Counted from the first letter of the stretch, positions 6,846 through 31,637 are shown. The stretch: 64,000 bases of DNA from a virus (IMGVR_UViG_3300012000_000005:1-64000), one strand, 5' to 3'. The notes: generated by a model from the sequence alone, not told the origin. A program made the numbers and translations.

Positions 6846-9521
6846 ATTATATTTCTGCGATTTTTCGCAGCACTATTCCTAGCAACATTTCTATTTTTAC
6901 TTGGTCAATCAACTGCGCATGCTGATGAACCTGCTACTGACCAGCAGGTCGTTTCCCCTGCCCCAAGCCCAGCTCCTGTAGATGGCGCTACCGTAACTAC
7001 TTCTTCTGGAGCCTTTCCACAACCAACGTCAACTCCTCAATCAACTGGTGAGAGTTCTTCAAGCTCTTCTTCAACTGGTTCAACTCCACAATCGTCTTCA
7101 ACTTCAGATACCTCATCGCCATCGCCCAGCCAATCGCCCATGCAATCGGCAGAGCCAGTATCCACGCCAACAAATAATCCTGAAACAATTACAGTTACCT
7201 CCGTACAGAATAAGATTGACACTGCAACTGCTACAGTCTCATCAACAAATATACCAACAACAGTCGCCTCTGACACTGCTGTTGTAACCGCTGTGGCACA
7301 AGCTACAGCGGCAATTCAAGATGCACAGACTTCTCTAAGTAACGCAACTCCTTTAGTGCAAGCAGCCGAAAGTGCTACAGCACTTATAGCACCTGCTGCA
7401 GCGGCTGTGGAAACCGCTACCACCACAGCTGCTGCCGCAGCTAATACTGTTACAACTCAAACTGCAGTTGTACAAGCTGCAACTGAAACTGTTGCTGCTA
7501 GACAAGAAGATGTAAATGTTGCAACTTCTGCAGTTACTACACAACAAGCAGTAGTAACGGAGGCCGTTATTACTAAGGCTGCGGCTGATGCTACTGTTGC
7601 TGCTAATACTCAACCAGGTCTTGATGTAAAAGTTACTCAGAACATTGGTTATAACAATGCTCCACCTGTAGAGGTAGGAACTACTACCTACACTGGAACT
7701 GCTGCTCAGATTAACTACAATTATGGTTTGGGTGGTCCCCCAAATACGTACCCAGAAGACTTTCAAATTAAATTCTCAGGACAGATTACGTCTAATACAA
7801 CTGGCAATATCCAGTTCTATGCTCCTGCAGATGACGGCGTAAAACTTTATCTAGATAATCAACTAGTTATTAATGACTGGTATGACAAAGGTGGCGGTGG
7901 TTCTATATCTGCTCCAGTAGCTTTTACAGCTAATACCCCTAAAGCTATTGTTCTTCATTTTTATGAGAACGGCGGAGGAGCAAACGTATCTTTGCGCTGG
8001 AATAGAGGTGCTGGTTGGGAAGTGGTTCCAGCTACAGCCTTGAGTCGTAGCAGCGCAACCCCTGAACAGCTAGCTGCAGCTCAAGCGGCTGCTACCGCAT
8101 TAAATACAGCTAATATAAATTTAAATAGTGCTACAGCAGCACAGTCAGTAGCAGAGACAGCACTTGCAGCAGCTCAGACCACACTAACAACAGAGACTCA
8201 AACATTGTCTAACCTCCAGGCTGAGAAAACTACTGCTGATGCTGCTGTTGTGTCAACTACTGCTGTTCTTACGCAGGTTACAAATGATGCGGCAACCGCT
8301 ACTTCCGCAGCTAATGCGGCTTTAAATACTGCTAATACTCTTGCTGATATTGCTGTTAATAAAGCAAACGCTATCGCTGTTCAGGTGTCCAGTACGAGCT
8401 CTCGTATTGAAGCGGAGGCTCAGGCTGCTGCGGCTGCTCAGGCTGCTGCGGCTGCTGCTGCGCAAGCTGCTGCTCAACAAGATGCTTCTTCTTCAACGCC
8501 AACTGTGCAACCAAATCCAAGTACTCCAACGTCTCCTTCTGACGGTGGGCCAACCACTCCTCCTCAGACAAATCCTCAAAACCCATCTACTGACCCTCTT
8601 CCTCCAACTGATACTGAACCTCAGCCCGATTCTCCATCTCAACCTGAAGGTCAGGAACAATCTCAAGAGCCTTCCGAAGATGGGGCTCAAAACCAAGAAT
8701 CCAATCAGGAATCTGACCAGAATCCTGAATCTCCTGACGAGCCAGAATCAACTGATGATACGCCTGAACAAGATGAGAATAACACATCTGATGATGGTAC
8801 TGATAGTTCCCAAGACTCATCTGAAGAACCTACAGACTCAGAAGAAGAACAGCAAACCACAGACCCAGAGTCACCAGAAACAGACCCCGAACAAAGCGGC
8901 GAAACTGACGAGTCTCAGAGCGAGAGTAATACTGAAGAATCAGAACAGCCACAGTCAGAAGAACAAGAGCAAGATAATCCGTTGGAAGAAACATCTTCTG
9001 ATAATACACCAGAAGAGGTAATAAGTGAAGCACTGGCTGATGGCAAACTTACTGAAGAGGAAAAAGCTGCCGTAGTAGAGGCTTTAGTTTCTAATTTAGA
9101 ACCTGGGGAAGCTGTTAGCGCTGAGGCTCTGAAGGAAGCTGGATTAACCTATGAGGACCTACCTCCTCAAACTCCAGTCAACGTTCGTACTGATGAGAAC
9201 GGTAATCCCGTTATAATTGAAGCAGAGGTTGCTGCGGCGCTAGTCTTATTAGAGAACCCCGCAGAACTTTTAGGCGCAATATTCGATGACCCAGGTCAGG
9301 TCCTTTTAGCACTCGGTTCTATCGGTGCTGATATGTCTCCAGAAGAACGAGAAGAAGCAACCAAAATGGTGGTTGCAACTGTCGTAGCAGCTGGAGCGGC
9401 TCTTAACGCAATCGGTGCAGCAGCTGGTGGCTCATCCGCACCAAGTGGTGGTGGAAGCAGTAACTCTGGAGGGGGAGGCCCTTCTGGAGAGAGTAAGGCC
9501 GTTAGGAGACGTAAGCCATGA
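6846..9521 (+). CDS. Secreted or membrane-anchored PA14-domain protein (about 891 aa, probable ATT start)
   Basis: Frame stays open upstream of the 7140 ATG to TAA at 6843 and encodes signal peptide IIFLRFFAALFLATFLFLLGQSTAHA/DE; PA14 motifs (FSGQI, ADDGVKLYLDNQLVINDW, FYENGGGA); acidic linker; C-terminal hydrophobic helix. Confidence 0.75.
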   Translation: MIFLRFFAALFLATFLFLLGQSTAHADEPATDQQVVSPAPSPAPVDGATVTTSSGAFPQPTSTPQSTGESSSSSSSTGSTPQSSSTSDTSSPSPSQSPMQSAEPVSTPTNNPETITVTSVQNKIDTATATVSSTNIPTTVASDTAVVTAVAQATAAIQDAQTSLSNATPLVQAAESATALIAPAAAAVETATTTAAAAANTVTTQTAVVQAATETVAARQEDVNVATSAVTTQQAVVTEAVITKAAADATVAANTQPGLDVKVTQNIGYNNAPPVEVGTTTYTGTAAQINYNYGLGGPPNTYPEDFQIKFSGQITSNTTGNIQFYAPADDGVKLYLDNQLVINDWYDKGGGGSISAPVAFTANTPKAIVLHFYENGGGANVSLRWNRGAGWEVVPATALSRSSATPEQLAAAQAAATALNTANINLNSATAAQSVAETALAAAQTTLTTETQTLSNLQAEKTTADAAVVSTTAVLTQVTNDAATATSAANAALNTANTLADIAVNKANAIAVQVSSTSSRIEAEAQAAAAAQAAAAAAAQAAAQQDASSSTPTVQPNPSTPTSPSDGGPTTPPQTNPQNPSTDPLPPTDTEPQPDSPSQPEGQEQSQEPSEDGAQNQESNQESDQNPESPDEPESTDDTPEQDENNTSDDGTDSSQDSSEEPTDSEEEQQTTDPESPETDPEQSGETDESQSESNTEESEQPQSEEQEQDNPLEETSSDNTPEEVISEALADGKLTEEEKAAVVEALVSNLEPGEAVSAEALKEAGLTYEDLPPQTPVNVRTDENGNPVIIEAEVAAALVLLENPAELLGAIFDDPGQVLLALGSIGADMSPEEREEATKMVVATVVAAGAALNAIGAAAGGSSAPSGGGSSNSGGGGPSGESKAVRRRKP

Positions 9522-10893: not shown

Positions 10894-11682
10894 ATGGCAG
10901 CATCATATCCAGGTTCGGTACGAGTATTTGATACAAAGTTTAATATCACCGACACTGTAGACGCTTCGCACCCTAACTCTTTACAAGAAGAAGTAGTTGC
11001 TATGCAGTCTATTATTGGTACAAACCCTCATGTTTCTACTGCTGCTAACCCTACAACCGCTTTTGTCGCTAGTTCCTTTACATACGGAAGCCTTTCTGCA
11101 CGTATTGCTAACATTGAAAACGGTGTTGTAGCCGATTCACACACTCAATATCTACGTAAAACTGCAGATGGTTTTACTAGTAATAGAGTTGACACTGGCA
11201 ACCAATCAAATGTTGGAGTTGTTGTACGAGGAACTCTAAATCAGTCTGCAAACCTCCAAGAATGGCAAAATAACATTGGAGTTGTTCAAGCAGCCGTTAC
11301 TCCAACTGGTTTATTTACTGGAACGGTAAATGCAGCCAATATTGTTGGTAGCGTAACCGCAATTCCTCAAGATGCAACAATTGAACAAAAATCTTCTAAT
11401 TTTTCATTAGTATTATCTGACAAAAACAAAGTATTTTGGTGTGTTAACACTGGAGCAACTTTAACTGTAACTATTCCCCTAAATGCTAGCCAAGCTTTTC
11501 CAACTGGCTCTCAAATGACGTTTATTCGTGGACAAAACCAAAATGTAACGTTTGTTGGAGAATCTGGCACGGTTGTATTAGGTGCAACTCCTGGTCCAAA
11601 CCTAAGAACGCAGTGGTCAGCAGCCACTCTTCTAAAGCTTGCTGAGAATACCTGGACTCTACTTGGCGATTTGAGCGCCTAA
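10894..11682 (+). CDS. Virion fibre adaptor or minor structural protein
   Basis: N-term ASYP...HPNSLQEEVVAMQ anchor and C-term LRTQWSAATLLK...WTLLGDL domain typical of phage fibre proteins. Confidence 0.65.
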   Translation: MAASYPGSVRVFDTKFNITDTVDASHPNSLQEEVVAMQSIIGTNPHVSTAANPTTAFVASSFTYGSLSARIANIENGVVADSHTQYLRKTADGFTSNRVDTGNQSNVGVVVRGTLNQSANLQEWQNNIGVVQAAVTPTGLFTGTVNAANIVGSVTAIPQDATIEQKSSNFSLVLSDKNKVFWCVNTGATLTVTIPLNASQAFPTGSQMTFIRGQNQNVTFVGESGTVVLGATPGPNLRTQWSAATLLKLAENTWTLLGDLSA

Positions 11683-13481
11683 TGTTAGTTAGAGTCGGTC
11701 CAGTTGACTCCCAGAAAAAGGTACCGCCTGGTTTAGCAACGCTAACCTCAGCAACTGATACTGGGTCTAATAGAAACTTTGATGATGGTTCATGTAACTT
11801 AACATGGACTGCGCCTACATTTGACGGAAAAACACCGCTTGTAGGCTATGACATTGTTGCTACTCCAGCTGACGGCGGCGCAGATGTTGTTACACAGGTT
11901 GGGCTAACAACAACTGGAAATATTACTGGTCTTCGTTCTGGTATTGAATATACTTACAAAGTTAGGGCTAGAAACCAAAGCAGTACTGGTTCTAACTCTT
12001 CTGGCAGAGGACCAATTAGAGCTACTACAAAGCCTAATATTCCTACAAACGTTTCAGCTGCTAATTTAAATACTGGAAGCACCGCATCAGTTTCATGGTC
12101 CGCCCCAGCTAACGGCGGTTCAACAATTACTCAATATACTGTAAAGATTGTTGGAACTAATACAACCCTAACAACTTCTAGCACTTCTCTTACTTTTACT
12201 GGATTAACTAACGGCAATAGTTATAGCTTTGTTGTTACTGCTACAAACGCAAACGGAACTAGTGCTGAATCAAACCCATCTGGTGTTATTGGTATCACTC
12301 AACCTGCTCCAGCACCAGCACCAGCTCCACCTTCTGGTGGTGGTGGGTGCACAAGTTGTCCACAAGACAGCGGAACTAGCTATTGTTCTGGAGCAAATTT
12401 AGTAATTAACCGAATAGACCCTTGTTGTGGAACAACACTATCGCCAAGAGTTGTTACAGTTAACGGCTGCGCTGCTCCAACTCCAACTGCTCCACCAGTA
12501 ACATGTTGCCAAGATGACGACGCAGGATTTTGCAGTGGCGGTACTTGGTTTCAAAATAGATTTGACCCTTGTGGTGGAGCTTATTGTGCCCCAAGAAATA
12601 CTGGAAGTCCTTGCGTCTCAACTGGGCCATCTGACGCAAACACTACTTATTGTGCATCAACTGCTTCGTTTGTTCCAACTTCGGGATATCCTGGAAACTG
12701 CCCAGGAGCTAGTACAGTAGTCGTAACACCAACTGCTCCTCCAGTAGTCATAACACCAACTGCTGCTCCAGTAACGCCAACTGCTGCTCCTGGACCTGAT
12801 GCTTTTGGTTGCCCACCTGGCACTGGTTTTGCTGGCGTTGGTCGAGGATGTATCCCTACTGGTCCTGTGACAGTAACACCAACTGCTGCTCCAGTAGTTG
12901 TAACCCCAACTCCACCATCTCAACCATTTGCACCTTGGCCAGAGTATTTCTACACGGGCGTTGGCGGTCCACCAGCAGCACCAGTACCAAGATACCCCTA
13001 CTACTGCTTATCTATTGACAGCATGATTCCTACTCCAAATGGAGATAAGAGATTAGCTGACTTAGTAATTGGTGACCAGATTATTTCTGCACGTTTTGAG
13101 GAAATTGACCCAGATGACCCAAATGCAGACTTAATTGTGGATACTTGGTCCTCAGACAGCTTTACCTATCGTGAGCTAGATATAACAACAATTGTTAATA
13201 TCAGAGAGTGGGAAGAGACTGGTCGTTATACTATTAACAATAGAATCCACGTAACAGGCACTCACCCATTTATTGCAAAAGAAGCCGCGGATGGGCGCTA
13301 TTACTATACTAGAGCTGCTCAGCTTGTAGAGGGTGATTTTTTATTTGATGGGGATTTAGAGACTTGGGTTCCCGTTACAAGTATTTCATATGCTCCAAAC
13401 ATTAGATTTAAAGTTCGTACTCTTAGCACTGAGCCCTATGATATGTTCTTCGCAGAGGGTATACTAGTTCACAACAAGTAA
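11682..13481 (+). CDS. FN3 x2 + Cys-rich and Pro-Thr-rich protein with C-terminal Hint domain
   Basis: FN3 signatures (WTAP...Y.YKVRARN; WSAP...YSFVVTATN); PTAAP repeats; Hint from C at 13005 (CLSIDSMI.TPNG, TGTHPF, VHNK-stop). Confidence 0.85.
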   Translation: MLVRVGPVDSQKKVPPGLATLTSATDTGSNRNFDDGSCNLTWTAPTFDGKTPLVGYDIVATPADGGADVVTQVGLTTTGNITGLRSGIEYTYKVRARNQSSTGSNSSGRGPIRATTKPNIPTNVSAANLNTGSTASVSWSAPANGGSTITQYTVKIVGTNTTLTTSSTSLTFTGLTNGNSYSFVVTATNANGTSAESNPSGVIGITQPAPAPAPAPPSGGGGCTSCPQDSGTSYCSGANLVINRIDPCCGTTLSPRVVTVNGCAAPTPTAPPVTCCQDDDAGFCSGGTWFQNRFDPCGGAYCAPRNTGSPCVSTGPSDANTTYCASTASFVPTSGYPGNCPGASTVVVTPTAPPVVITPTAAPVTPTAAPGPDAFGCPPGTGFAGVGRGCIPTGPVTVTPTAAPVVVTPTPPSQPFAPWPEYFYTGVGGPPAAPVPRYPYYCLSIDSMIPTPNGDKRLADLVIGDQIISARFEEIDPDDPNADLIVDTWSSDSFTYRELDITTIVNIREWEETGRYTINNRIHVTGTHPFIAKEAADGRYYYTRAAQLVEGDFLFDGDLETWVPVTSISYAPNIRFKVRTLSTEPYDMFFAEGILVHNK

Positions 13482-13491
13482 AGGACCTAAT

Positions 13492-14109
13492 ATGGAATCA
13501 AAAATCGTTGCACCAGGGATAGTCTTATTTGAGAACATAGTCCCTGACTATAAAGAGCTAGTACAGGAAATAGAAAAAGTAGGAAATTCACCATCTAAAG
13601 TAATTAGGTGGAAACGAGCTACTGTGGGTTCTCCTACCGCTGGAACTCAAATACACGAGGCTAGAACCAACTCCTCTATTCATCTTCAAGCTGAGTGGGC
13701 TACGGTTGAAAACCCAGATTTAAATGCTGGAGGACAGCTAGCGGTAAAGTTAATTAATAACATTCAAGATGCCTACAACAAATATAAAGAATATTATCCA
13801 TCAGTAAACTCTGGAGACCTTCCAGTAAGCCCTATTATTTTAAGGTATCAAACTGGTCAAAAATACGATATGCATGCAGATGCTGGCGGAGGAAATAACC
13901 GAGTATTATCTTTAGTTTGGTATGTAAATAACGAGTATGAAGGTGGAGAAATTGACTTCCCATACTTTGGATATAAGTTAAAGCCACCAGCTAATTCTAT
14001 GATTTTCTTTCCTTCTAACTACATTTATGCGCATATAGCTCACCCAGTAACTGACGGAACAAAGTATGCCGTGGTTATGTGGATATTGGAAGACACAACT
14101 CATTTATGA
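13492..14109 (+). CDS. 2OG-Fe(II) dioxygenase, prolyl 4-hydroxylase-like
   Basis: HAD...YEGGE.DF...FPS...H...PVTDGTKY: HxD...H triad and 2OG-binding Lys. Confidence 0.85.
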   Translation: MESKIVAPGIVLFENIVPDYKELVQEIEKVGNSPSKVIRWKRATVGSPTAGTQIHEARTNSSIHLQAEWATVENPDLNAGGQLAVKLINNIQDAYNKYKEYYPSVNSGDLPVSPIILRYQTGQKYDMHADAGGGNNRVLSLVWYVNNEYEGGEIDFPYFGYKLKPPANSMIFFPSNYIYAHIAHPVTDGTKYAVVMWILEDTTHL

Positions 14110-14699
14110 AATATTTTTCTGATGACGCAGATATGGGTACCCGCCCAATTGTAAAAGACCCAATTATAGTAAGTGACGTTCTAGAGCCAACTAGATTTGC
14201 AGAGGTTGTAGAAACGGTTACTAATTACCCATTGGATGAGCTTACTTACGATAGAAGTTTTGGCCGTTTTATGTTAAAGCCTGGGTCAAGCACCTTGCCA
14301 GACGACCTATTAAAGGAATGTCAGCAAAAAGCAAGAGATATATTTGACAGCCAAACTCTTCTACCTACATATGCCTGCTACGTAAAATACAAGGGTGCTA
14401 GAGCTAACTTATTGCGCCACAAAGACAGCAATGCTTGCACATATACAATTGACCTTTGTTTAACACAGATGGTTGAGTGGCCGCTATACGTTGAGGATAA
14501 AGAGTACATATTGCAGCCAAATCAAGCTCTATGTTTTTATGGAGAGGACCAAACTCATTGGCGCGGCCCATATCCAGAAAAAGACACAAATATAATAGAC
14601 ATGATATTTCTACATTATGCGGAGCCAGACCACTGGTATCACACCAAAGGAGCGGAGTACTACAAAACAATCATGGCTAGACAAAACGCTGTGATGTAA
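14106..14699 (+). CDS. 2OG-Fe(II) dioxygenase (phage type)
   Basis: HKD...C..T..L...WP...HWR...FLHY motif; ATGA overlap at 14106. Confidence 0.8.
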   Translation: MKYFSDDADMGTRPIVKDPIIVSDVLEPTRFAEVVETVTNYPLDELTYDRSFGRFMLKPGSSTLPDDLLKECQQKARDIFDSQTLLPTYACYVKYKGARANLLRHKDSNACTYTIDLCLTQMVEWPLYVEDKEYILQPNQALCFYGEDQTHWRGPYPEKDTNIIDMIFLHYAEPDHWYHTKGAEYYKTIMARQNAVM

Positions 14700-15427
14700 T
14701 GCCAGTAATTAAGTTCTATCCTACTGACGAGGAAGTAGGGGGTTTTGCCCCTCCACCAGTCCCCGTTCGCACAATGATGCCAGAATGGTTTAGAAAGCTT
14801 CCGCCTTACCTAACTCAAAAGCCAGAAGTTGTAAAGGCAATTGATGATTCCCCAAACGGTGGTCATTTTCTAAATGTAACTGGTAAAAAGTGCATGTCTA
14901 TGATTGATACGTTTACCACTGGGTATTACTTCTTATGTCCCGTAGATATATTTATAGACACGACAAATCCGAAAGACATTCAATTAAAATGGAGAAATCC
15001 TCGTTACGAGTTTATATTAACTCACAACCCAGAGCAGGTTGGAGATTACCCTGTAGATGATACCCTTTGTGAAGATATCTTAAGGTGGGTTCCATTTTGG
15101 TGTGCGGTAACTCCAGAAGGTTACAGTACGCTTATTATTACGCCCGCACATAGACCAGACCTGCCTTTTATAACAATGACTGGAATTATAGACACAGATA
15201 GCATGCCTTCTGCTGGCGCTTTACCTTTTCACATAAAGAAAAACTATAAAGGAATTATTAAGCGAGGAACCCCTATTGCTCAGGCTATACCCTTTAAAAG
15301 AGAAGAGTGGAGCTCTGAAATCATAGAGGAAAGAAGTCAAGAAGTTCGTGATAGGCTAAATCTGATAAATTCCTCCTTTTCAGGGATGTATCAAGAAAAT
15401 ATGTGGGAGAAGAAGACATTTAAATGA
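14699..15427 (+). CDS. Conserved phage protein (DUF6065-like), frequent neighbour of 2OG oxygenases
   Basis: PEWFRK...KKC...TPEGYS.L...PF....GIIDTD...IKRGTPIAQAIPFKRE. Confidence 0.6.
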   Translation: MPVIKFYPTDEEVGGFAPPPVPVRTMMPEWFRKLPPYLTQKPEVVKAIDDSPNGGHFLNVTGKKCMSMIDTFTTGYYFLCPVDIFIDTTNPKDIQLKWRNPRYEFILTHNPEQVGDYPVDDTLCEDILRWVPFWCAVTPEGYSTLIITPAHRPDLPFITMTGIIDTDSMPSAGALPFHIKKNYKGIIKRGTPIAQAIPFKREEWSSEIIEERSQEVRDRLNLINSSFSGMYQENMWEKKTFK

Positions 15428-15693
15428 GCAAAATTTCAGATAGATTTAGAAACAGTGATAAGGGTAAAAACCTTCCCAAACCAGTTAGGCCGTGGGATTT
15501 ACTAAAAACCTCTGAGCCTAGAGCAACTGATGACGTTGCTTCAGACAGGTTGTCTATCTGCAGGGCTTGTCCAGAGTTAATACCCCTTACTGGTCAATGT
15601 AAAAAATGTGGCTGCGTTATGCATTTAAAAGTAAAACTAGCAAAAGCCTACTGTCCACTTCATAAATGGGCCCCAACCCACGATACGGAATAA
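15424..15693 (+). CDS. Small Cys-rich metal-binding protein (DUF6171-like)
   Basis: R..IC..CP......QCKKCGC.M..K......CP..KW. Confidence 0.7.
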   Translation: MSKISDRFRNSDKGKNLPKPVRPWDLLKTSEPRATDDVASDRLSICRACPELIPLTGQCKKCGCVMHLKVKLAKAYCPLHKWAPTHDTE

Positions 15694-15695
15694 AA

Positions 15696-16718
15696 ATGAC
15701 CCCAAAACTGCTGGTAAGCATCGTAAACTACAAAGACCCAGAGTTTTTTGAAACTGTGAGGAGTCTTTGGGACACGTGCGACTTTAAAGACTCTATTGTG
15801 TTTTCTTTGGTAGATGAAGACGAGGCGCCTAAGGATTTTTCCTTTATTCCAGAAAAAAATTTAATTTACAGATATTTTCCTTCTGATAAGTACTACGGCG
15901 GCCTGTGCTGGGCAAGGAACTTAGCTACGCAAGTAGATTTTGATTACGAATACTTTGTTCAGTTTGACTCCCACAGTAGGGCTCGTAATGGGTGGGATAG
16001 AAAAGGGTACGAAAACTATAAATATATAGAAGCGGCATTTCCAGAAGAAAAAGTATTAATTTGCTATGCCCCTCCTTCCTATTTTATAGATAAAGAGGGG
16101 AACGTAAATTTAGAATTAGAAACCAACAAGTTTGGACAAAGAGCTACTTGGTATAAAGACTTAGTTCCAGGATATGAATTTCCTGGGTATAGAGAATTAA
16201 CTGGAACAGAGGTTGCGAAAACATATTGGACCACTTGTATGTACATATTTGCTCCATATGCGTGGATAGATGAAGTTGGAGTAGATGGGGTTGGAGCTTT
16301 TAGTACTGAAGAGTTCAATCAATCTATAAGAACATTTTCAAAAGGTTGGTCCATATATGCAATTGGGGCCAGAGACGTTTTTCATCAACACCACGACTCT
16401 TGGGGACGAAACTATACAAAGGCAGCTTTACGGCCTTGGGGTGATGAAAGAGAAAACGCTTATTGGGACCATGTACTAAGTGCTACTAACCACCTTGGCA
16501 GACTTCTAGCTGGGTTAGAAGACGTGCCCATAGAAAAAGTAAAAGAGTTTTTTAAAGTGACTGAAATAGATGAGCGTTTCTTAGGTATGTCAGATGCTTA
16601 CTACGACATGGTTAATGCACGAGGTAAGGCTCTGGGAATGCCACCAAGACCAAACAGAAACGGTATGCCCCCTCTACCCTCTCCAGACGCACCAGTATTT
16701 AAGCCTGACAGACCGTAA
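15696..16718 (+). CDS. GlcNAc transferase, Gnt1/GT60-like (Skp1-hydroxyproline GlcNAc-transferase family)
   Basis: VSIVNYKDPE...T..SL, G.CWARN, FVQFDSHSR...WD, EE....IR.FS.GW.IY match the GT60 pattern. Confidence 0.7.
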   Translation: MTPKLLVSIVNYKDPEFFETVRSLWDTCDFKDSIVFSLVDEDEAPKDFSFIPEKNLIYRYFPSDKYYGGLCWARNLATQVDFDYEYFVQFDSHSRARNGWDRKGYENYKYIEAAFPEEKVLICYAPPSYFIDKEGNVNLELETNKFGQRATWYKDLVPGYEFPGYRELTGTEVAKTYWTTCMYIFAPYAWIDEVGVDGVGAFSTEEFNQSIRTFSKGWSIYAIGARDVFHQHHDSWGRNYTKAALRPWGDERENAYWDHVLSATNHLGRLLAGLEDVPIEKVKEFFKVTEIDERFLGMSDAYYDMVNARGKALGMPPRPNRNGMPPLPSPDAPVFKPDRP

Positions 16719-21361: not shown

Positions 21362-22963
21362 ATGGAGAATTACAACGTGCTAGAAGATGAAGAAGACGAC
21401 CAATTTTTTCCAGACGATGAGCTGGAAGATGAAGACAGTGTTCCCGAAGAGGTTGAAGAAGAAGAGCTTGATGAACTCTCTAAAGAGTTTGTAAAAAAGC
21501 TTGTAGATAAAACAATTACTTTTATGAACGCCCTTGTTGGGCATGAGTTACACCCATATCAAATGCCTCTTGCGCGTCGCATCATTGAGTCTGTAATTAT
21601 TAACGACGGTGAAGAAATTACTGCGTTAGCAGCCCGTCAGTCAGGTAAATCAGAAACTATTGCTAACACCGTAGCAACATTGATGGTTCTTTTGCCACGT
21701 CTTGCAAAAATGTACCCAGACTTACTAGGTCAGTTTAAAGACGGTATTTGGGTAGGCATGTTTGCTCCCGTTGAAGGTCAGGTAGAAACACTATTTGGTA
21801 GAACTGTTAATAGGCTTACTAGTGAGCGTGCACAAGAGATTTTAGGCGACCCAGAGATTGATGATTCTCTTGGCAAGGTCCCTGGAGTTACACGACAGAT
21901 TAAACTTAAAAACTCAAGCAGTAGCCTTATGATGATGACTGCTAACCCGCGTGCAAAGATTGAGTCTAAATCCTTCCACCTTATTGTTATTGACGAGTGT
22001 CAAGAAGCAGACGACTTTGTAGTATCTAAATCTATCTCTCCTATGTTGGCGTACTACTCAGGAACTATGGTTAAGACTGGTACACCAACAACTTCTAAGA
22101 ATAACTTTTACCGCTCTATTCAGTTAAACAAGCGCAGACAAACAGCAAGGTCTGTACGTATGAATCATTTTGAGTGGGACTATAAAGACGTTTCTAAGTT
22201 CAACGCTAACTACGCAAAGTTCATCAAGAAAGAGATGTTGCGTATCGGTGAGGACTCTGACGAGTTCCAGATGTCGTATAACTGCAAGTGGTTACTAGAA
22301 CGAGGTATGTTTGTAACCTCAGCTATTATGGATGAGCTTGGTGACACTTCTCAGGAAACCGTTAAGGCTTGGCACCGTTCTCCAGTGGTAGTTGGTATTG
22401 ACCCAGCCCGTAAGTTAGACTCTACAGTTGTAACAGTTGTCTGGGTAGATTGGGACCGCCCAGATGAGTTTGGATATTTTGACCACAGGGTCCTTAATTG
22501 GCTGGAGCTACAAGGTGATGACTGGGAAGACCAATATTTTCAAATTACTAACTTCTTGGGTAATTATGACGTACTTGCTGTTGGCGTTGACGCTAACGGC
22601 GTGGGTGATGCGGTTGCACAAAGACTCAAGCTCCTCCTCCCACGAGCAGAGGTTCATGCCTTAACTAGTAGCCAACCTGAACAATCTAAACGTTGGAAAC
22701 ACTTAAAAGCACTAATTGACAGGCGAATGATTGGATGGCCTGCACACGCCAAAACTAGAAGACTGCGCACATGGAAGCGTTTTTACCAACAAATGACAGA
22801 TTTGGAAACTAAATTTACAGGACCAAACTTTCTTGCCCATGCCCCTGACGAAGCCCATGCCCACGATGATTATGCCGATAGTTTGGCCATAGCCGTATCC
22901 CTAACCTTGGATATGACCATGCCTTCTGTAGAGGTCTCTACGTCCCCGTTCTTTTCTAGGTAG
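21362..22963 (+). CDS. terL: Terminase large subunit
   Basis: Walker A ARQSGKS, Walker B LIVIDE, GTP motif, nuclease GIDPA and HDDYADS. Confidence 0.92.
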   Translation: MENYNVLEDEEDDQFFPDDELEDEDSVPEEVEEEELDELSKEFVKKLVDKTITFMNALVGHELHPYQMPLARRIIESVIINDGEEITALAARQSGKSETIANTVATLMVLLPRLAKMYPDLLGQFKDGIWVGMFAPVEGQVETLFGRTVNRLTSERAQEILGDPEIDDSLGKVPGVTRQIKLKNSSSSLMMMTANPRAKIESKSFHLIVIDECQEADDFVVSKSISPMLAYYSGTMVKTGTPTTSKNNFYRSIQLNKRRQTARSVRMNHFEWDYKDVSKFNANYAKFIKKEMLRIGEDSDEFQMSYNCKWLLERGMFVTSAIMDELGDTSQETVKAWHRSPVVVGIDPARKLDSTVVTVVWVDWDRPDEFGYFDHRVLNWLELQGDDWEDQYFQITNFLGNYDVLAVGVDANGVGDAVAQRLKLLLPRAEVHALTSSQPEQSKRWKHLKALIDRRMIGWPAHAKTRRLRTWKRFYQQMTDLETKFTGPNFLAHAPDEAHAHDDYADSLAIAVSLTLDMTMPSVEVSTSPFFSR

Positions 22964-29159: not shown

Positions 29160-31637
29160 GTGGCTCCAGAAGAACTTTATGTAGTAGGTCCAGATAACAG
29201 CGCTTGGTACCCAACCGCTACTGGTCCGACTTCTCCTGCTCCTACAGGCGGTACTGGTCCTACTGGACCAACTGGCCCTACTGGTAGAACAGGTGCAACA
29301 GGACCAGCAGGTGCAACGGGTGCTGCTGGCGTTTCTGTAACAGGTCCTCAAGGTCCAACTGGCGCGCCAGGACCAACTGGTCCACAAGGTATCCAAGGTA
29401 ACGCTGGTCCAACTGGTGCAACTGGTCCTTCTGGTATTTCTGGTCTTCAAGGACCTACTGGTCCCACTGGACCATCTGGACAAGTAATCACTATTCGTGG
29501 TGAGTACCCAACACTTAATGATTTACAAACAGCACATCCAACTGGTAATCCAGGCGATGCTTATCTTCTTGCTAATGGCAATTTAATTATTTGGAACCCT
29601 ACGTTAAACGGGCCATCCACTGGTGGTTGGCAAAACGTAGGTAATCTAGAAGGACCAACTGGTCCTGCTGGAGTAACAGGTCCTACTGGTCCACGCGGAC
29701 AGCAAGGTGTACAAGGTCCTGTTGGTAATACTGGTACAACAGGTGATACTGGTCCTACTGGTCCGCAAGGCCCAACAGGTCCACAAGGTGCACGTGGTGA
29801 GACTGGTCCTATCGGTCCTACTGGTGTTGCTGGTCTTGTTGGACCAACAGGTGCTACTGGTGCACAAGGTCTTTCTATTACTGGCCCTACTGGTCCTCAA
29901 GGTAAGTCATTAACACTTCTCGGAAGTTTTGCTGATTTACAAGCACTAAACCTTGCGTATCCTCCAATAACACTTAAAGCTGGCGACACAGCTTTTATTG
30001 GAACTACATTCTATTACTGGAATCCATCCCCTGGTATTTGGGTTGCTACTTCCAATTTGATTGGACCTACAGGTCCTACAGGTGCCGTCGGTCCTACAGG
30101 TGCCGCATCAAACGTAACTGGTCCTACTGGTTTAACTGGAGCTACTGGTGCACAGGGTCCTATTGGTCCAACAGGTCCTCAAGGAAATATTGGTGCCACT
30201 GGTCCAACTGGAGCAGCATCAACGGTTCCTGGTCCTACTGGTCCTACTGGAACTACGCGCCCAGTAACAAGCGTTACATTTACAAGTCGAGGTGTTTGGA
30301 GTTCCTTAGGAACTTACGTATTAAATGATGGAGTTACTTACAACTCTGAAACATGGGTATTAACAAACGTTTCACAATTTACTGTTGGTACCGCACCTAA
30401 CGCTGATGGAAGCGGATGGGCACTTTATGTAAAAGGTGCTACAGGTGCTACGGGTCCTCAAGGTTCTGCTGGTCTTCCAGGTGCAATTGGTCCTACAGGT
30501 GCTCAAGGTCCACAAGGTATTCAAGGCCCTACTGGTCCACAGGGTACAGCAGGTACTCCAGGTTCTGTTGGTACCGCGGGTGCTACAGGTCCTACTGGTC
30601 CTCAAGGTGCTGGAATCTTTATTCTTGGTTCCTACAACTCATTAAGCGATTTACAAACAGCGCATCCAATTGGTGCAACTGGCGACGGTTATCTTGTTAA
30701 CGGTGTTCTATTTGTATGGGCTGGTTCTAACTGGGCAAGTGCTGGTGCAATTCAAGGACCAACAGGTGCTCAAGGTATTCAAGGTATCCAAGGTGCAACT
30801 GGTCCTAAAGGAGATACTGGTCCACAAGGACCTCAAGGTATTCAAGGAATTCAAGGACCAGTTGGTCCTACTGGCTTAACTGGTGCGACTGGTGCGCAAG
30901 GAACTCAAGGTCTTCAAGGTCTTCAAGGTGTAACAGGTCCTACAGGTCCGCAAGGTCCTCAAGGTGTTACTGGTCCAACAGGTATTCAGGGACGCGGTCT
31001 TGCAATTCTTGGTTCGTTTGATACGTTCCAACAATTAACTGCAACCATAACCAATCCTGCAACTGGTGACGGTTATTTAATTCAAGGTCAGTTATATATT
31101 TGGCAAGGTACTGCGTGGATTAACGCAGGCTTTGTTCAAGGCCCAACAGGTCCTACTGGACAAACAGGTATTCAAGGTCCTACAGGTGCAACTGGTGCGG
31201 CTTCAACTGTTCCAGGTCCTACTGGTGCTACAGGCCCAACTCCATTTACCGTTATTGGTACTTGGCAAAGTGGAATTTCATATCAACCTGGTCAAGCCGT
31301 TTTCTATGACACCCCAACATTAAAAGGAACGTACCTACGCAGAAACAACAATTCTACTGCTGGCATTACTCCTTTAGAAGACCCAGCTGGTTGGCAAGTA
31401 ATTGTTGCTGCAACTATTGGACCAACTGGAGCTACAGGTCCACAAGGTTTAACTGGTCTACAAGGTCCAACTGGTTCTCAAGGTATTCAGGGTGTAACAG
31501 GACCAACAGGAAGTCAGGGTTTACTAGGTCCAACAGGCCCTACAGGCACTACACTACTTAATGTAGATGGTGGCGGCCCTGCAACAAATTATGGCGGAGT
31601 TATAACCATCAACGGAGGAGACGTGAGCGGTAACTAA
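29160..31637 (+). CDS. Collagen-like fibre protein
   Basis: Extensive Gly-X-Y (GPT/GAT/GPQ) runs interrupted by repeated globular modules. Confidence 0.9.

What the first reader, a model, noticed from the sequence alone, without database searches (positions are those of the whole stretch)
13005..13481. C-terminal Hint domain that cannot splice canonically: autoprocessing or covalent ligation
Seen: Cys1 (YY/CLS), block B TGTH and terminal HN followed by a single Lys and stop, so there is no C-extein nucleophile and no homing endonuclease. Established: Hedgehog and BIL-type Hint domains form an N-terminal thioester that an external nucleophile resolves. Inference: the FN3/Pro-rich part is released, or covalently attached to another virion protein, lipid or small molecule.
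Basis: partly seen in the sequence, partly recalled or inferred. Interest (0 to 1): 0.75.

Follow-up and report, generated by a model that had tools for sequence, protein, structure and literature searches.

The report
Self-excising Hint cap on phage fibre protein
A surface (tail-region) protein of an uncultured 95-kb phage ends in an intact intein-like "Hint" domain followed by a single, always-conserved lysine. The domain most likely cuts itself off after translation and may hand the protein's new end to that lysine, a maturation step not tested in any phage.

Summary
ORF 11682-13481 (599 aa) ends in a 158-aa domain (13005-13478) with Cys1 after YPYY, block-B TGTH, and His-Asn-Lys-stop.

- **Fold and kinship.** AlphaFold gives a confident Hint fold (pLDDT 88). 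A family profile matches the C. thermocellum bacterial intein-like (BIL) domain 2LWY at 4e-18 and the Tetrahymena BIL2 domain at about 1e-15.
- **Conservation.** All 16 close homologues keep Cys1 and ...EGILVHNK-stop. dN/dS is 0.03-0.09, while the middle of the protein is hypervariable.
- **Wider family.** It belongs to a large set (272 representatives) of Hint domains, most of which sit at the extreme C-terminus of their protein; those with named or fetched context are phage proteins.
The lysine is not incidental. Among 80 distant HN-type caps, 79 have a Lys in the short tail (about 12 expected). Ser1/His-Asp caps have none.
- **Precedent.** BIL2, the top Foldseek match, makes Lys-epsilon isopeptides.

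My best reading is self-excision with the lysine as built-in acceptor. Plain hydrolysis is the main rival, and I found no evidence for trans-ligation.

The gene is followed by a prolyl-4-hydroxylase-like oxygenase, a probable second oxygenase, a DUF6065 protein, a small DUF6171 protein and a hydroxyproline-GlcNAc-transferase-family gene. The first three follow it at 47-50% identity in one distant relative (L016), and a related set (three oxygenases plus DUF6065) in another (L053).

The scan has noted similar Hint caps on other DNA before. I rate this a new variant of a known kind. No cleavage has been shown.

The parts
11682..13481 (+). Whole gene, 599 aa: FN3 fibre-type protein with a C-terminal Hint cap
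   Evidence: ORF. Sixteen full-architecture homologues, aligned as A1. The start overlaps the stop of the upstream gene (ATGA).
11682..12296 (+). aa 1-205: conserved N-terminus (..VDSQKKVPP..) and two fibronectin type III domains
   Evidence: Pfam fn3 at 2.6e-26 with two stretches. PHROG minor/major tail protein families match through the FN3 region.
12297..12923 (+). aa 206-414: hypervariable middle with 16 Cys in small repeated modules and Pro/Thr/Ala linkers (TPTAAPV type). It is 18% Pro and has no Lys.
   Evidence: Alignment A1 shows copy-number and sequence variation here. Composition.
12924..13004 (+). aa 415-441: conserved aromatic/proline pre-site, PWPEYFY..G.P.AP.P.YPYY. It becomes the new C-terminus after cleavage.
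   Evidence: Several invariant columns in A1 (P415, P418, W419, Y422, Y424, G429, P431, A433, P434, P436, Y441), which is not the case in the variable middle. 30% Pro and 30% aromatic. Mostly low confidence in the AF2 model (block means 36, 44, 73 over the 27 pre-site residues; residues 1-17 below 50).
13005..13478 (+). aa 442-599: Hint (A-type-BIL-like) autoprocessing domain
   Evidence: Profile against PDB. AF2 and Foldseek. dN/dS 0.03-0.09 against relatives with saturated dS.
13005..13007 (+). Cys442 (Cys1), the predicted thioester nucleophile. The scissile bond is Tyr441-Cys442.
   Evidence: Invariant in A1. Wherever the family alignment reaches position 1, the residue is Cys (60 of 60).
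13254..13265 (+). Block B, T-G-T-H (Thr525, His528)
   Evidence: Across the family, Thr/Ser in 167 of 184 aligned stretches and His in 155 of 184.
13470..13481 (+). His597-Asn598-Lys599-stop: predicted Asn cyclisation site and one-residue 'C-extein'
   Evidence: Invariant in 17 sequences. The Lys codon and the stop codon vary (AAG TAA against AAA TAG in L016) while Lys-stop is kept. Lys statistics.
13492..14109 (+). Prolyl-4-hydroxylase-like 2OG-Fe(II) oxygenase, 11 nt downstream
   Evidence: PF13640 at 1.1e-15. Best PDB matches are B. anthracis P4H 3ITQ/5HV0 at 9e-7 and PBCV-1 P4H 5C5T. Adjacent in all relatives, including L016 at 50% identity.
14106..14699 (+). Probable second oxygenase-like protein (weak evidence)
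   Evidence: Matches phrog_2954 at 1.5e-15 and phrog_3531 at 7e-8. The latter family is also matched by the P4H-like gene. The nearest named Atlas clusters are PF13640, at 0.91, which is a lead only. The start at 14106 rather than 14079 comes.
14699..15427 (+). DUF6065-like protein of unknown function. It travels with the cassette.
   Evidence: phrog_7084 at 1.8e-40. Atlas clusters carry DUF6065. Present after the Hint gene in L016 and L053. The fold is inconclusive.
15666..16718 (+). Glycosyltransferase of the PF11397 'GlcNAc' family. By my recollection of the Pfam entry, this is the family of the enzyme that glycosylates hydroxyproline of Skp1.
   Evidence: PF11397 at 9e-15 against a cutoff of 21 bits. 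Present in close relatives but not detected in L016 or L053.
10894..11682 (+). Upstream gene, apparently translationally coupled. Its C-terminal part resembles minor tail proteins.
   Evidence: phrog_8780 minor tail protein at 2.7e-14. Syntenic in relatives.

Best explanation
The last 158 codons encode an active bacterial-intein-like (A-type BIL-like) Hint domain. It caps a surface-exposed, tail-region FN3 protein of an uncultured 95-kb contractile-tailed phage, and it most likely removes itself after translation.

Inferred mechanism:
1. Cys442 attacks the Tyr441 carbonyl (N-S acyl shift), giving a thioester.
2. The epsilon-amine of the terminal Lys599, which the Hint fold holds next to Cys1, captures the acyl group.
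3. Asn598 cyclises and frees the 157-aa Hint domain.

The mature protein (aa 1-441) would then end in its conserved aromatic/proline tail ...PRYPYY, joined to one lysine. This is in effect protein splicing with a one-residue C-extein, as the Tetrahymena BIL2 domain does with Lys side chains.

The P4H-like oxygenase(s), the DUF6065 protein and the Hyp-GlcNAc-transferase-family enzyme encoded just downstream probably modify the proline-rich part.

What is shown: sequence, fold, conservation, family-wide Lys linkage and gene neighbourhood. What is inferred: every chemical step.

My odds: self-cleavage at Cys1 about 0.75; lysine capture, given cleavage, about 0.55.
For: - **Domain identity.** Intact catalytic set at the stated coordinates. 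Hint fold at pLDDT 88, with best structural matches BIL2, the gp41-1 intein, BIL 2LWY and Hedgehog. The family profile hits 2LWY at 3.9e-18 and BIL2 at about 1e-15.
- **Selection.** Cys1, Thr525, His597, Asn598 and Lys599 are invariant in 17 sequences whose middle region is hypervariable. dN/dS is 0.03-0.09.
- **Position in the protein.** 272 representatives match at E<=1e-3. Of 132 full-length domain matches, most sit at the extreme C-terminus with 0-10 residues after His-Asn.
- **Lysine linkage.** 79 of 80 distant HN-type caps have Lys in the tail, against about 12 expected (about 22 at a 7% Lys background). For confirmed Cys1/HN caps the count is 55 of 56. The Lys lies at variable positions from +1 to about +8, which points to a side-chain role rather than an alpha-amine role. 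Ser1/His-Asp caps, which lack the cyclising Asn, have 0 of 8 (Fisher 1.4e-10).
- **Precedent.** BIL2 forms a Lys-epsilon isopeptide by splicing (PMC8616854). A-type BILs lack a +1 nucleophile, cleave, and sometimes splice by an alternative route (PMC5874633; PMC7765530).
- **Neighbourhood.** The P4H-like gene is 11 nt downstream. The three-gene cassette is kept in L016 at 47-50% identity. L053, a distant relative (FN3 34%, Hint 35% identity) with an (FFAPPx)n tail, also ends in Hint-HNK and is followed by P4H-like, DUF6065 and two more P4H-like genes.
Against: - No experiment exists on any member, and all chemistry is inferred from homology.
- One homologue has Gln for the block-B His.
- The benefit of adding a single lysine is unclear. 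The Lys could instead act as a general base, tune the Cys1 pKa, or serve folding.
- The tools did not give me model coordinates, so I could not measure the Lys-to-thioester distance.
- P4H-like genes accompany only 4 of 31 other cap lineages, so the link to the neighbours is specific to certain lineages. Those lineages include proteins that are not proline-rich (L030, L073).
- Virion location rests on FN3/tail-family matches and gene position only.
Confidence: 0.6

Rival explanations
1. Cleavage only. The Hint domain is a disposable C-terminal cap, working as an intramolecular chaperone or solubility guard for the sticky aromatic/proline tail. It forms the thioester, water hydrolyses it, and the protein is left ending in Tyr441-COOH. 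The lysine helps catalysis or Asn cyclisation but is not ligated.
For: Same domain evidence as the main explanation. N- and C-terminal cleavage is the commonest reported outcome for A-type BIL domains (PMC7765530; PMC5874633). C-terminal self-cleaving chaperone domains are established in phage fibres, for example the S74 domain (PMC7824862). An S74 domain even appears among the neighbours of other caps.
Against: It does not explain why Lys, at variable positions in the tail, is kept in 79 of 80 HN-type caps and is absent from the caps that lack the cyclising Asn. With only 1-8 residues after the Asn, there is no obvious reason to keep Asn cyclisation if the tail is never used.
Confidence: 0.25
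2. Trans-ligation. The thioester is resolved by an outside nucleophile, such as a Lys of another virion protein, a host cell-wall amine or a small molecule, so that the fibre becomes covalently attached.
For: BIL2 can pass its N-flank to several substrates (PMC8616854). Hedgehog uses an external nucleophile. Thioester chemistry permits it.
Against: - There is no adduct-recognition extension after the Hint domain, only one residue.
- No partner gene is conserved across the cap family apart from oxygenases in a minority of lineages.
- A labile thioester would be unlikely to survive in a free virion.
- The conserved cis lysine sits closer than any outside nucleophile.
Confidence: 0.1
3. The domain is catalytically silent and stays on the mature protein as a structural or binding module at the fibre tip.
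For: Some Hint-fold domains have lost activity. One homologue has Gln at the block-B His.
Against: Cys1, Thr, His-Asn and Lys are invariant. Purifying selection is strong on exactly the catalytic motifs. Sequence conservation peaks at the C-terminal motif.
Confidence: 0.05

Closest known systems
A-type bacterial intein-like (BIL) domains (Amitai 2003; Dassa 2004; C. thermocellum BIL, PDB 2LWY)
   Same: Hint fold, Cys1, block-B TxxH, C-terminal His-Asn, no Cys/Ser/Thr at +1 and no endonuclease. The domain sits in a hypervariable, non-essential surface-type protein. 2LWY is the best profile match in the PDB (3.9e-18) with target-normalised TM 0.82.
   Different: Classical A-type BILs lie inside bacterial secreted proteins and have a real C-flank. 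Here the C-flank is one lysine and the host is a phage fibre-type protein. The near-universal tail lysine is not part of the published definition as I know it. No Pfam Hint model reaches its cutoff.
BIL2 domain of the Tetrahymena thermophila BUBL1 polyubiquitin-like locus (PDB 6Y75, 6TMM; Chiarini 2021)
   Same: Top Foldseek match (E 4e-9) and second-best profile match. It resolves its thioester on a Lys epsilon-amine to give an isopeptide (PMC8616854), which is the chemistry proposed here.
   Different: It is eukaryotic, is flanked by ubiquitin-like domains on both sides, and its acceptor lysine lies in a folded C-flank or in other proteins. Identity is only 15-16%.
Hedgehog C-terminal autoprocessing (Hog) domain (PDB 1AT0)
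   Same: A Hint domain at the C-terminus of its protein that releases the N-terminal part through a Cys thioester. It is a clear structural match.
   Different: Hog has a sterol-recognition region after the Hint module and no terminal His-Asn. Here there is His-Asn-Lys and no extension.
Canonical mini-inteins (for example gp41-1, PDB 6QAZ)
   Same: Same fold and the same catalytic motifs.
   Different: Inteins interrupt conserved sites of essential proteins and need Cys/Ser/Thr at +1. Neither holds here.
Peptidase S74 intramolecular chaperone domain of phage tailspikes and fibres
   Same: A functional analogy only: a C-terminal domain of a phage fibre that cuts itself off during maturation (PMC7824862).
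   Different: Unrelated fold and Ser-Lys chemistry, with no thioester.

Membership tests
Hint superfamily | Hint (horseshoe beta) fold | tested here: met
   AF2 pLDDT 87.9. Foldseek gives 61 PDB matches at E<=1e-3, and all the listed top ones are BIL domains, inteins or Hedgehog.
Hint superfamily | N-terminal Cys/Ser nucleophile and block-B Thr-x-x-His | tested here: met
   Cys442 and T525-G-T-H528. Conserved in the close family and the wide family.
A-type BIL domain | C-terminal His-Asn with a non-nucleophilic +1 residue | tested here: met
   H597-N598 followed by Lys599. The definition is taken from PMC7765530 and PMC5874633.
A-type BIL domain | Located in a variable region of a non-conserved, surface or secreted type protein, with no endonuclease | tested here: met
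   The hypervariable Cys/Pro-rich region sits directly upstream. The domain is 158 aa with no insert.
A-type BIL domain | Closer in sequence to A-type BILs than to inteins, Hog or B-type BILs | tested here: inconclusive
   The best PDB profile hit is the C. thermocellum BIL. Against Pfam, however, members spread over Intein_splicing (25 of 58), PT-HINT (18), Hom_end_hint (12), Hint (4) and Hint_2 (4), all below cutoff for the window protein. I built no tree.
A-type BIL domain | Autocatalytic N- and/or C-terminal cleavage | not testable with these tools
   Needs expression of wild type against C442A and N598A.
Canonical intein | Cys/Ser/Thr at +1 and insertion in a conserved site of a host protein that is restored by splicing | tested here: not met
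   The +1 residue is Lys, followed by a stop. A second in-frame stop comes two codons later.
Hedgehog Hog domain | Sterol-recognition region after the Hint module | tested here: not met
   The protein ends one residue after the Hint domain.
Pretoxin HINT (PF07591) | Hint domain placed upstream of a C-terminal toxin domain | tested here: not met
   There is no domain downstream. PF07591 is not matched by the window protein, although 18 of 58 family members match it weakly.
BUBL-type BIL (Lys-isopeptide-forming) | Thioester resolved by a Lys epsilon-amine | not testable with these tools
   Indirect support only: the tail Lys is present in 79 of 80 HN-type caps, and BIL2 is the top Foldseek match.

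The most novel reading that the evidence does not exclude
Phages chemically finish a fibre tip in two coupled steps. First, dedicated 2OG oxygenases (and, in this lineage, a hydroxyproline-type glycosyltransferase) modify an aromatic/proline-rich tail. Second, a Hint cap excises itself by lysine-directed splicing. This leaves a C-terminal N-epsilon-acyl-lysine on a hydroxylated Tyr/Pro-rich tail, loosely comparable to mussel-adhesive peptides. It would be a self-contained, ATP-independent way to build a modified adhesive or receptor-binding tip.
Probability: 0.2. Interest if true: 0.8.

Novelty: new variant of a known kind. Interest (0 to 1): 0.6.

Why it matters
If the cap works as proposed, it adds a thioester-based, lysine-directed self-splicing step to the known ways in which phage fibres mature. 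Until now the known route is the S74 chaperone domain. It would also be a prokaryotic-virus counterpart of the BIL2 isopeptide chemistry.

The family is large (272 representatives at 50% identity clustering) and unannotated by the curated Pfam cutoffs. One experiment would therefore inform many phage tail and fibre genes and improve their annotation.

The adjacent P4H-like and Hyp-GlcNAc-transferase-family genes suggest post-translational hydroxylation and glycosylation of a phage structural protein. In the papers I could search, I found this described for chloroviruses but not for phages.

Small Hint caps that carry their own acceptor could also be useful protein-engineering tools.

Tried and rejected
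I took genomic context from the search for related loci and a DNA pattern scan instead.
- **The search for related loci with the diverse alignment A2** failed because no stretch was conserved enough. I replaced it with the pattern for FAxGxLVHNK. That pattern fixes Lys at +1, so I did not use those loci for the Lys statistics.
- **tblastn against 50,697 phage records.** The whole protein found nothing at 1e-5, and megablast of 11 kb found nothing. The domain alone gave only weak hits, to Phage NCTB, Yersinia phage fHe-Yen9-02 and one uncultured phage.
- **Canonical intein, Hog and PT-HINT membership** were all rejected on defining features (see the membership table).
- **Stop-codon readthrough or a hidden C-extein** was rejected: a second in-frame stop follows after two codons, and the next gene is in another frame.
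- **DUF6065-like neighbour.** AF2 gave only pLDDT 66, with weak dUTPase-like matches (E about 1e-3, TM 0.3-0.6). I draw no conclusion.
- **The 14106 ORF** had no PDB or NCBIfam match.
- **'Lysine desert' before Cys1.** There is no Lys in aa 156-441, and 14 of 17 homologues have 237-336 Lys-free residues. In the wide family, Arg is depleted too in the Gly/Pro-rich linkers, so I do not count this as evidence.
- **P4H association.** P4H-like genes lie directly adjacent in only 4 of 31 other cap lineages and within 2.5 kb in 2 of 23 internal-BIL loci. The association is real for some lineages but is not a general property of caps.
- **Literature.** Seven completed full-text searches found no paper describing C-terminal Hint caps on phage fibres. 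The library lacks most subscription journals. I could not read Amitai 2003, and Dassa 2004 was not held.

Full report
**What is there.** The window is the first 64 kb of a 95-kb IMG/VR virus record. It has a terminase, portal, tail sheath, tape-measure-like protein and collagen-like fibre genes. Its large terminase is 55% identical to that of Streptomyces phage BRock, so an actinobacterial host is a lead only.

ORF 11682-13481 (+) encodes 599 aa. The parts are:
- **aa 1-205:** a conserved N-terminus and two FN3 domains (Pfam 2.6e-26; PHROG tail families).
- **aa 206-414:** a hypervariable middle with 16 cysteines in small repeated modules and Pro/Thr/Ala linkers.
- **aa 415-441:** a conserved aromatic/proline pre-site, PWPEYFY..G.P.AP.P.YPYY.
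- **aa 442-599:** the domain in question.

**Observation check.** Cys442 follows YPYY. VTGTHPF supplies block B. The protein ends His-Asn-Lys-TAA. A second in-frame stop lies two codons later, and the next gene is in another frame.

Direct Pfam and NCBIfam hits are weak: Intein_splicing at 20 bits against a cutoff of 35.8, and intein_Cterm at 16.6 bits. Three stronger tests settle the fold:
- A profile of 58 relatives matches the C. thermocellum BIL domain 2LWY at 3.9e-18, Tetrahymena BIL2 at about 1e-15, and then many inteins.
- AlphaFold with that alignment gives pLDDT 87.9 and pTM 0.82. The pre-site residues are mostly of low confidence (block means 36, 44 and 73), which I read as flexible.
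- Foldseek returns BIL2 (4e-9), the gp41-1 intein, 2LWY (target-normalised TM 0.82) and Hedgehog 1AT0.

**Conservation.** Sixteen proteins share the architecture. Cys1, Thr525, His597, Asn598 and Lys599 are invariant, and the last 15 residues are almost identical, while the middle region differs in sequence and in module number. dN/dS of the Hint part is 0.03-0.09 against relatives with saturated synonymous change. In L016 the Lys and stop codons differ (AAA TAG) but Lys-stop is kept.

**A large family of C-terminal caps.** An exhaustive search found 272 representatives at E<=1e-3. Of 132 full-length domain matches, most end 0-10 residues after the His-Asn position, and 39 end exactly at the lysine.

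Among the 100 distant representatives with tails of 15 residues or fewer, 80 end in His-Asn. Of these, 79 have at least one Lys in the tail, where about 12 are expected (22 at a 7% Lys background). The Lys lies anywhere from +1 to about +8 and is often the last residue. For confirmed Cys1/His-Asn caps the count is 55 of 56.

The eight Ser1/His-Asp caps, which cannot cyclise an Asn, have no tail lysine. They have Lys at position -1 instead, in 8 of 8 cases. So the lysine travels with the Cys1 plus Asn-cyclisation chemistry.

BIL2, the top Foldseek match, is reported to splice onto a Lys epsilon-amine (PMC8616854). A-type BILs lack a +1 nucleophile, cleave at either end, and sometimes splice by an alternative route (PMC5874633; PMC7765530).

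**Mechanism I consider most likely.** None of the following steps has been shown.
1. An N-S acyl shift occurs at Tyr441-Cys442.
2. The Lys599 side chain captures the acyl group.
3. Asn598 cyclises.
4. The 157-aa Hint domain is released.

The mature protein would end ...PRYPYY-Lys. The main rival is plain hydrolysis. Trans-ligation to another molecule has no support: there is no recognition extension and no conserved partner.

**Neighbourhood.** Eleven nucleotides downstream lies a 2OG-Fe(II) oxygenase (PF13640, 1.1e-15). Its best solved relatives are bacterial and chlorovirus prolyl 4-hydroxylases. The genes that follow are:
- a probable second oxygenase-like gene;
- a DUF6065-like gene;
- a small DUF6171 protein;
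- a glycosyltransferase of family PF11397 (9e-15). By my recollection of the Pfam entry, this is the family of the enzyme that glycosylates hydroxyproline of Skp1.

The order is syntenic in 14 related contigs. In the most divergent one, L016, only the first three downstream genes are retained, at 47-50% identity.

A pattern scan for FAxGxLVHNK gave 80 more loci. Among 125 ORFs flanking 29 of the 31 unrelated cap genes it yielded, PF13640 was the commonest Pfam family, with 10 members. All ten lie within 2 kb of the cap gene, in 4 loci, and none in the 129 kb farther away. By locus, that is 4 of 31 caps and 2 of 23 internal BILs, so the link holds only for certain lineages.

L053 is the telling case. 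Its protein is a distant relative (FN3 34%, Hint 35% identity) with an (FFAPPx)n tail before Hint-HNK. It is followed by P4H-like, DUF6065 and two more P4H-like genes.

**Known or new.** UniProt/BFVD already auto-labels similar uncultured-phage proteins as 'Hint domain containing', 'Fibronectin type III', 'PASTA' or 'Collagen'. A cultured jumbo phage, Yersinia fHe-Yen9-02, has a collagen-like 'virion structural protein' that ends in such a cap beside tail-fibre genes. I found no paper on the arrangement.

Earlier notes of this scan describe similar caps, the tail lysine and a P4H battery on other DNA. I re-tested the lysine statistic, the BIL2 kinship and the P4H adjacency here, on independent data.

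**Limits.** There is no experimental evidence for cleavage. I had no access to model coordinates.

Noticed in passing
window 13492-16718: A P4H-like 2OG oxygenase, a probable second oxygenase, a DUF6065 protein, a DUF6171 zinc-ribbon-like protein and a PF11397 glycosyltransferase lie in a row. PF11397 is, as I recall, the Skp1 hydroxyproline GlcNAc-transferase family. Together they look like a proline-hydroxylation plus hydroxyproline-glycosylation gene set in a phage.
   Followed up: partly
proteins P0019-P0164: C-terminal Hint caps fall into three types. Cys1...His-Asn caps have Lys in the tail (55 of 56). Ser1...Tyr-Asn caps have an Arg/Lys-Glu tail. Ser1...His-Asp caps have no tail Lys but have Lys at position -1 in 8 of 8.
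   Followed up: partly
L030:976-3189 and L050:2-661: A protein ends in two Hint domains in tandem: ...LVHN-YKA-C... followed by ...LVHNKK-stop. It is not proline-rich, yet is flanked by four (L030) or two (L050) P4H-like genes.
   Followed up: partly
L053:10268-14245: A distant relative has three FN3 domains, an (FFAPPx)n repeat and Hint-HNK. It is followed by P4H-like, DUF6065-like, P4H-like and P4H-like genes. This matches the type reported earlier in this scan (e1-5956679).
   Followed up: partly
L018, L037, L021, L028, L033: The same ...FAxGxLVHNK motif also occurs inside very large tail proteins with long C-flanks that begin with Lys, and in tandem in L033. Capped and internal BIL domains therefore form a continuum in phage tail genes.
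   Followed up: no
window 14079-14699: The listed GTG start at 14079 is probably wrong. The ESM Atlas holds the protein from residue 10 on (ATG 14106), which overlaps the stop of the preceding gene by four bases.
   Followed up: partly
window 29160-31637 and 7140-9521: An 825-aa collagen-like tail fibre matches 45 PHROG families. A separate 793-aa protein carries a PA14 domain. These are further adhesin-type genes in the same phage.
   Followed up: no
window 11682-13004 (aa 156-441): There is no lysine in the 286 residues before Cys1, and 14 of 17 homologues have Lys-free stretches of 237-336 aa. In the wide family Arg is depleted there too, so this may be only linker composition.
   Followed up: yes
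window 21362-22963: The large terminase is 55% identical to that of Streptomyces phage BRock and related phages. This hints at an actinobacterial host, although no close phage genome is in the collection.
   Followed up: no
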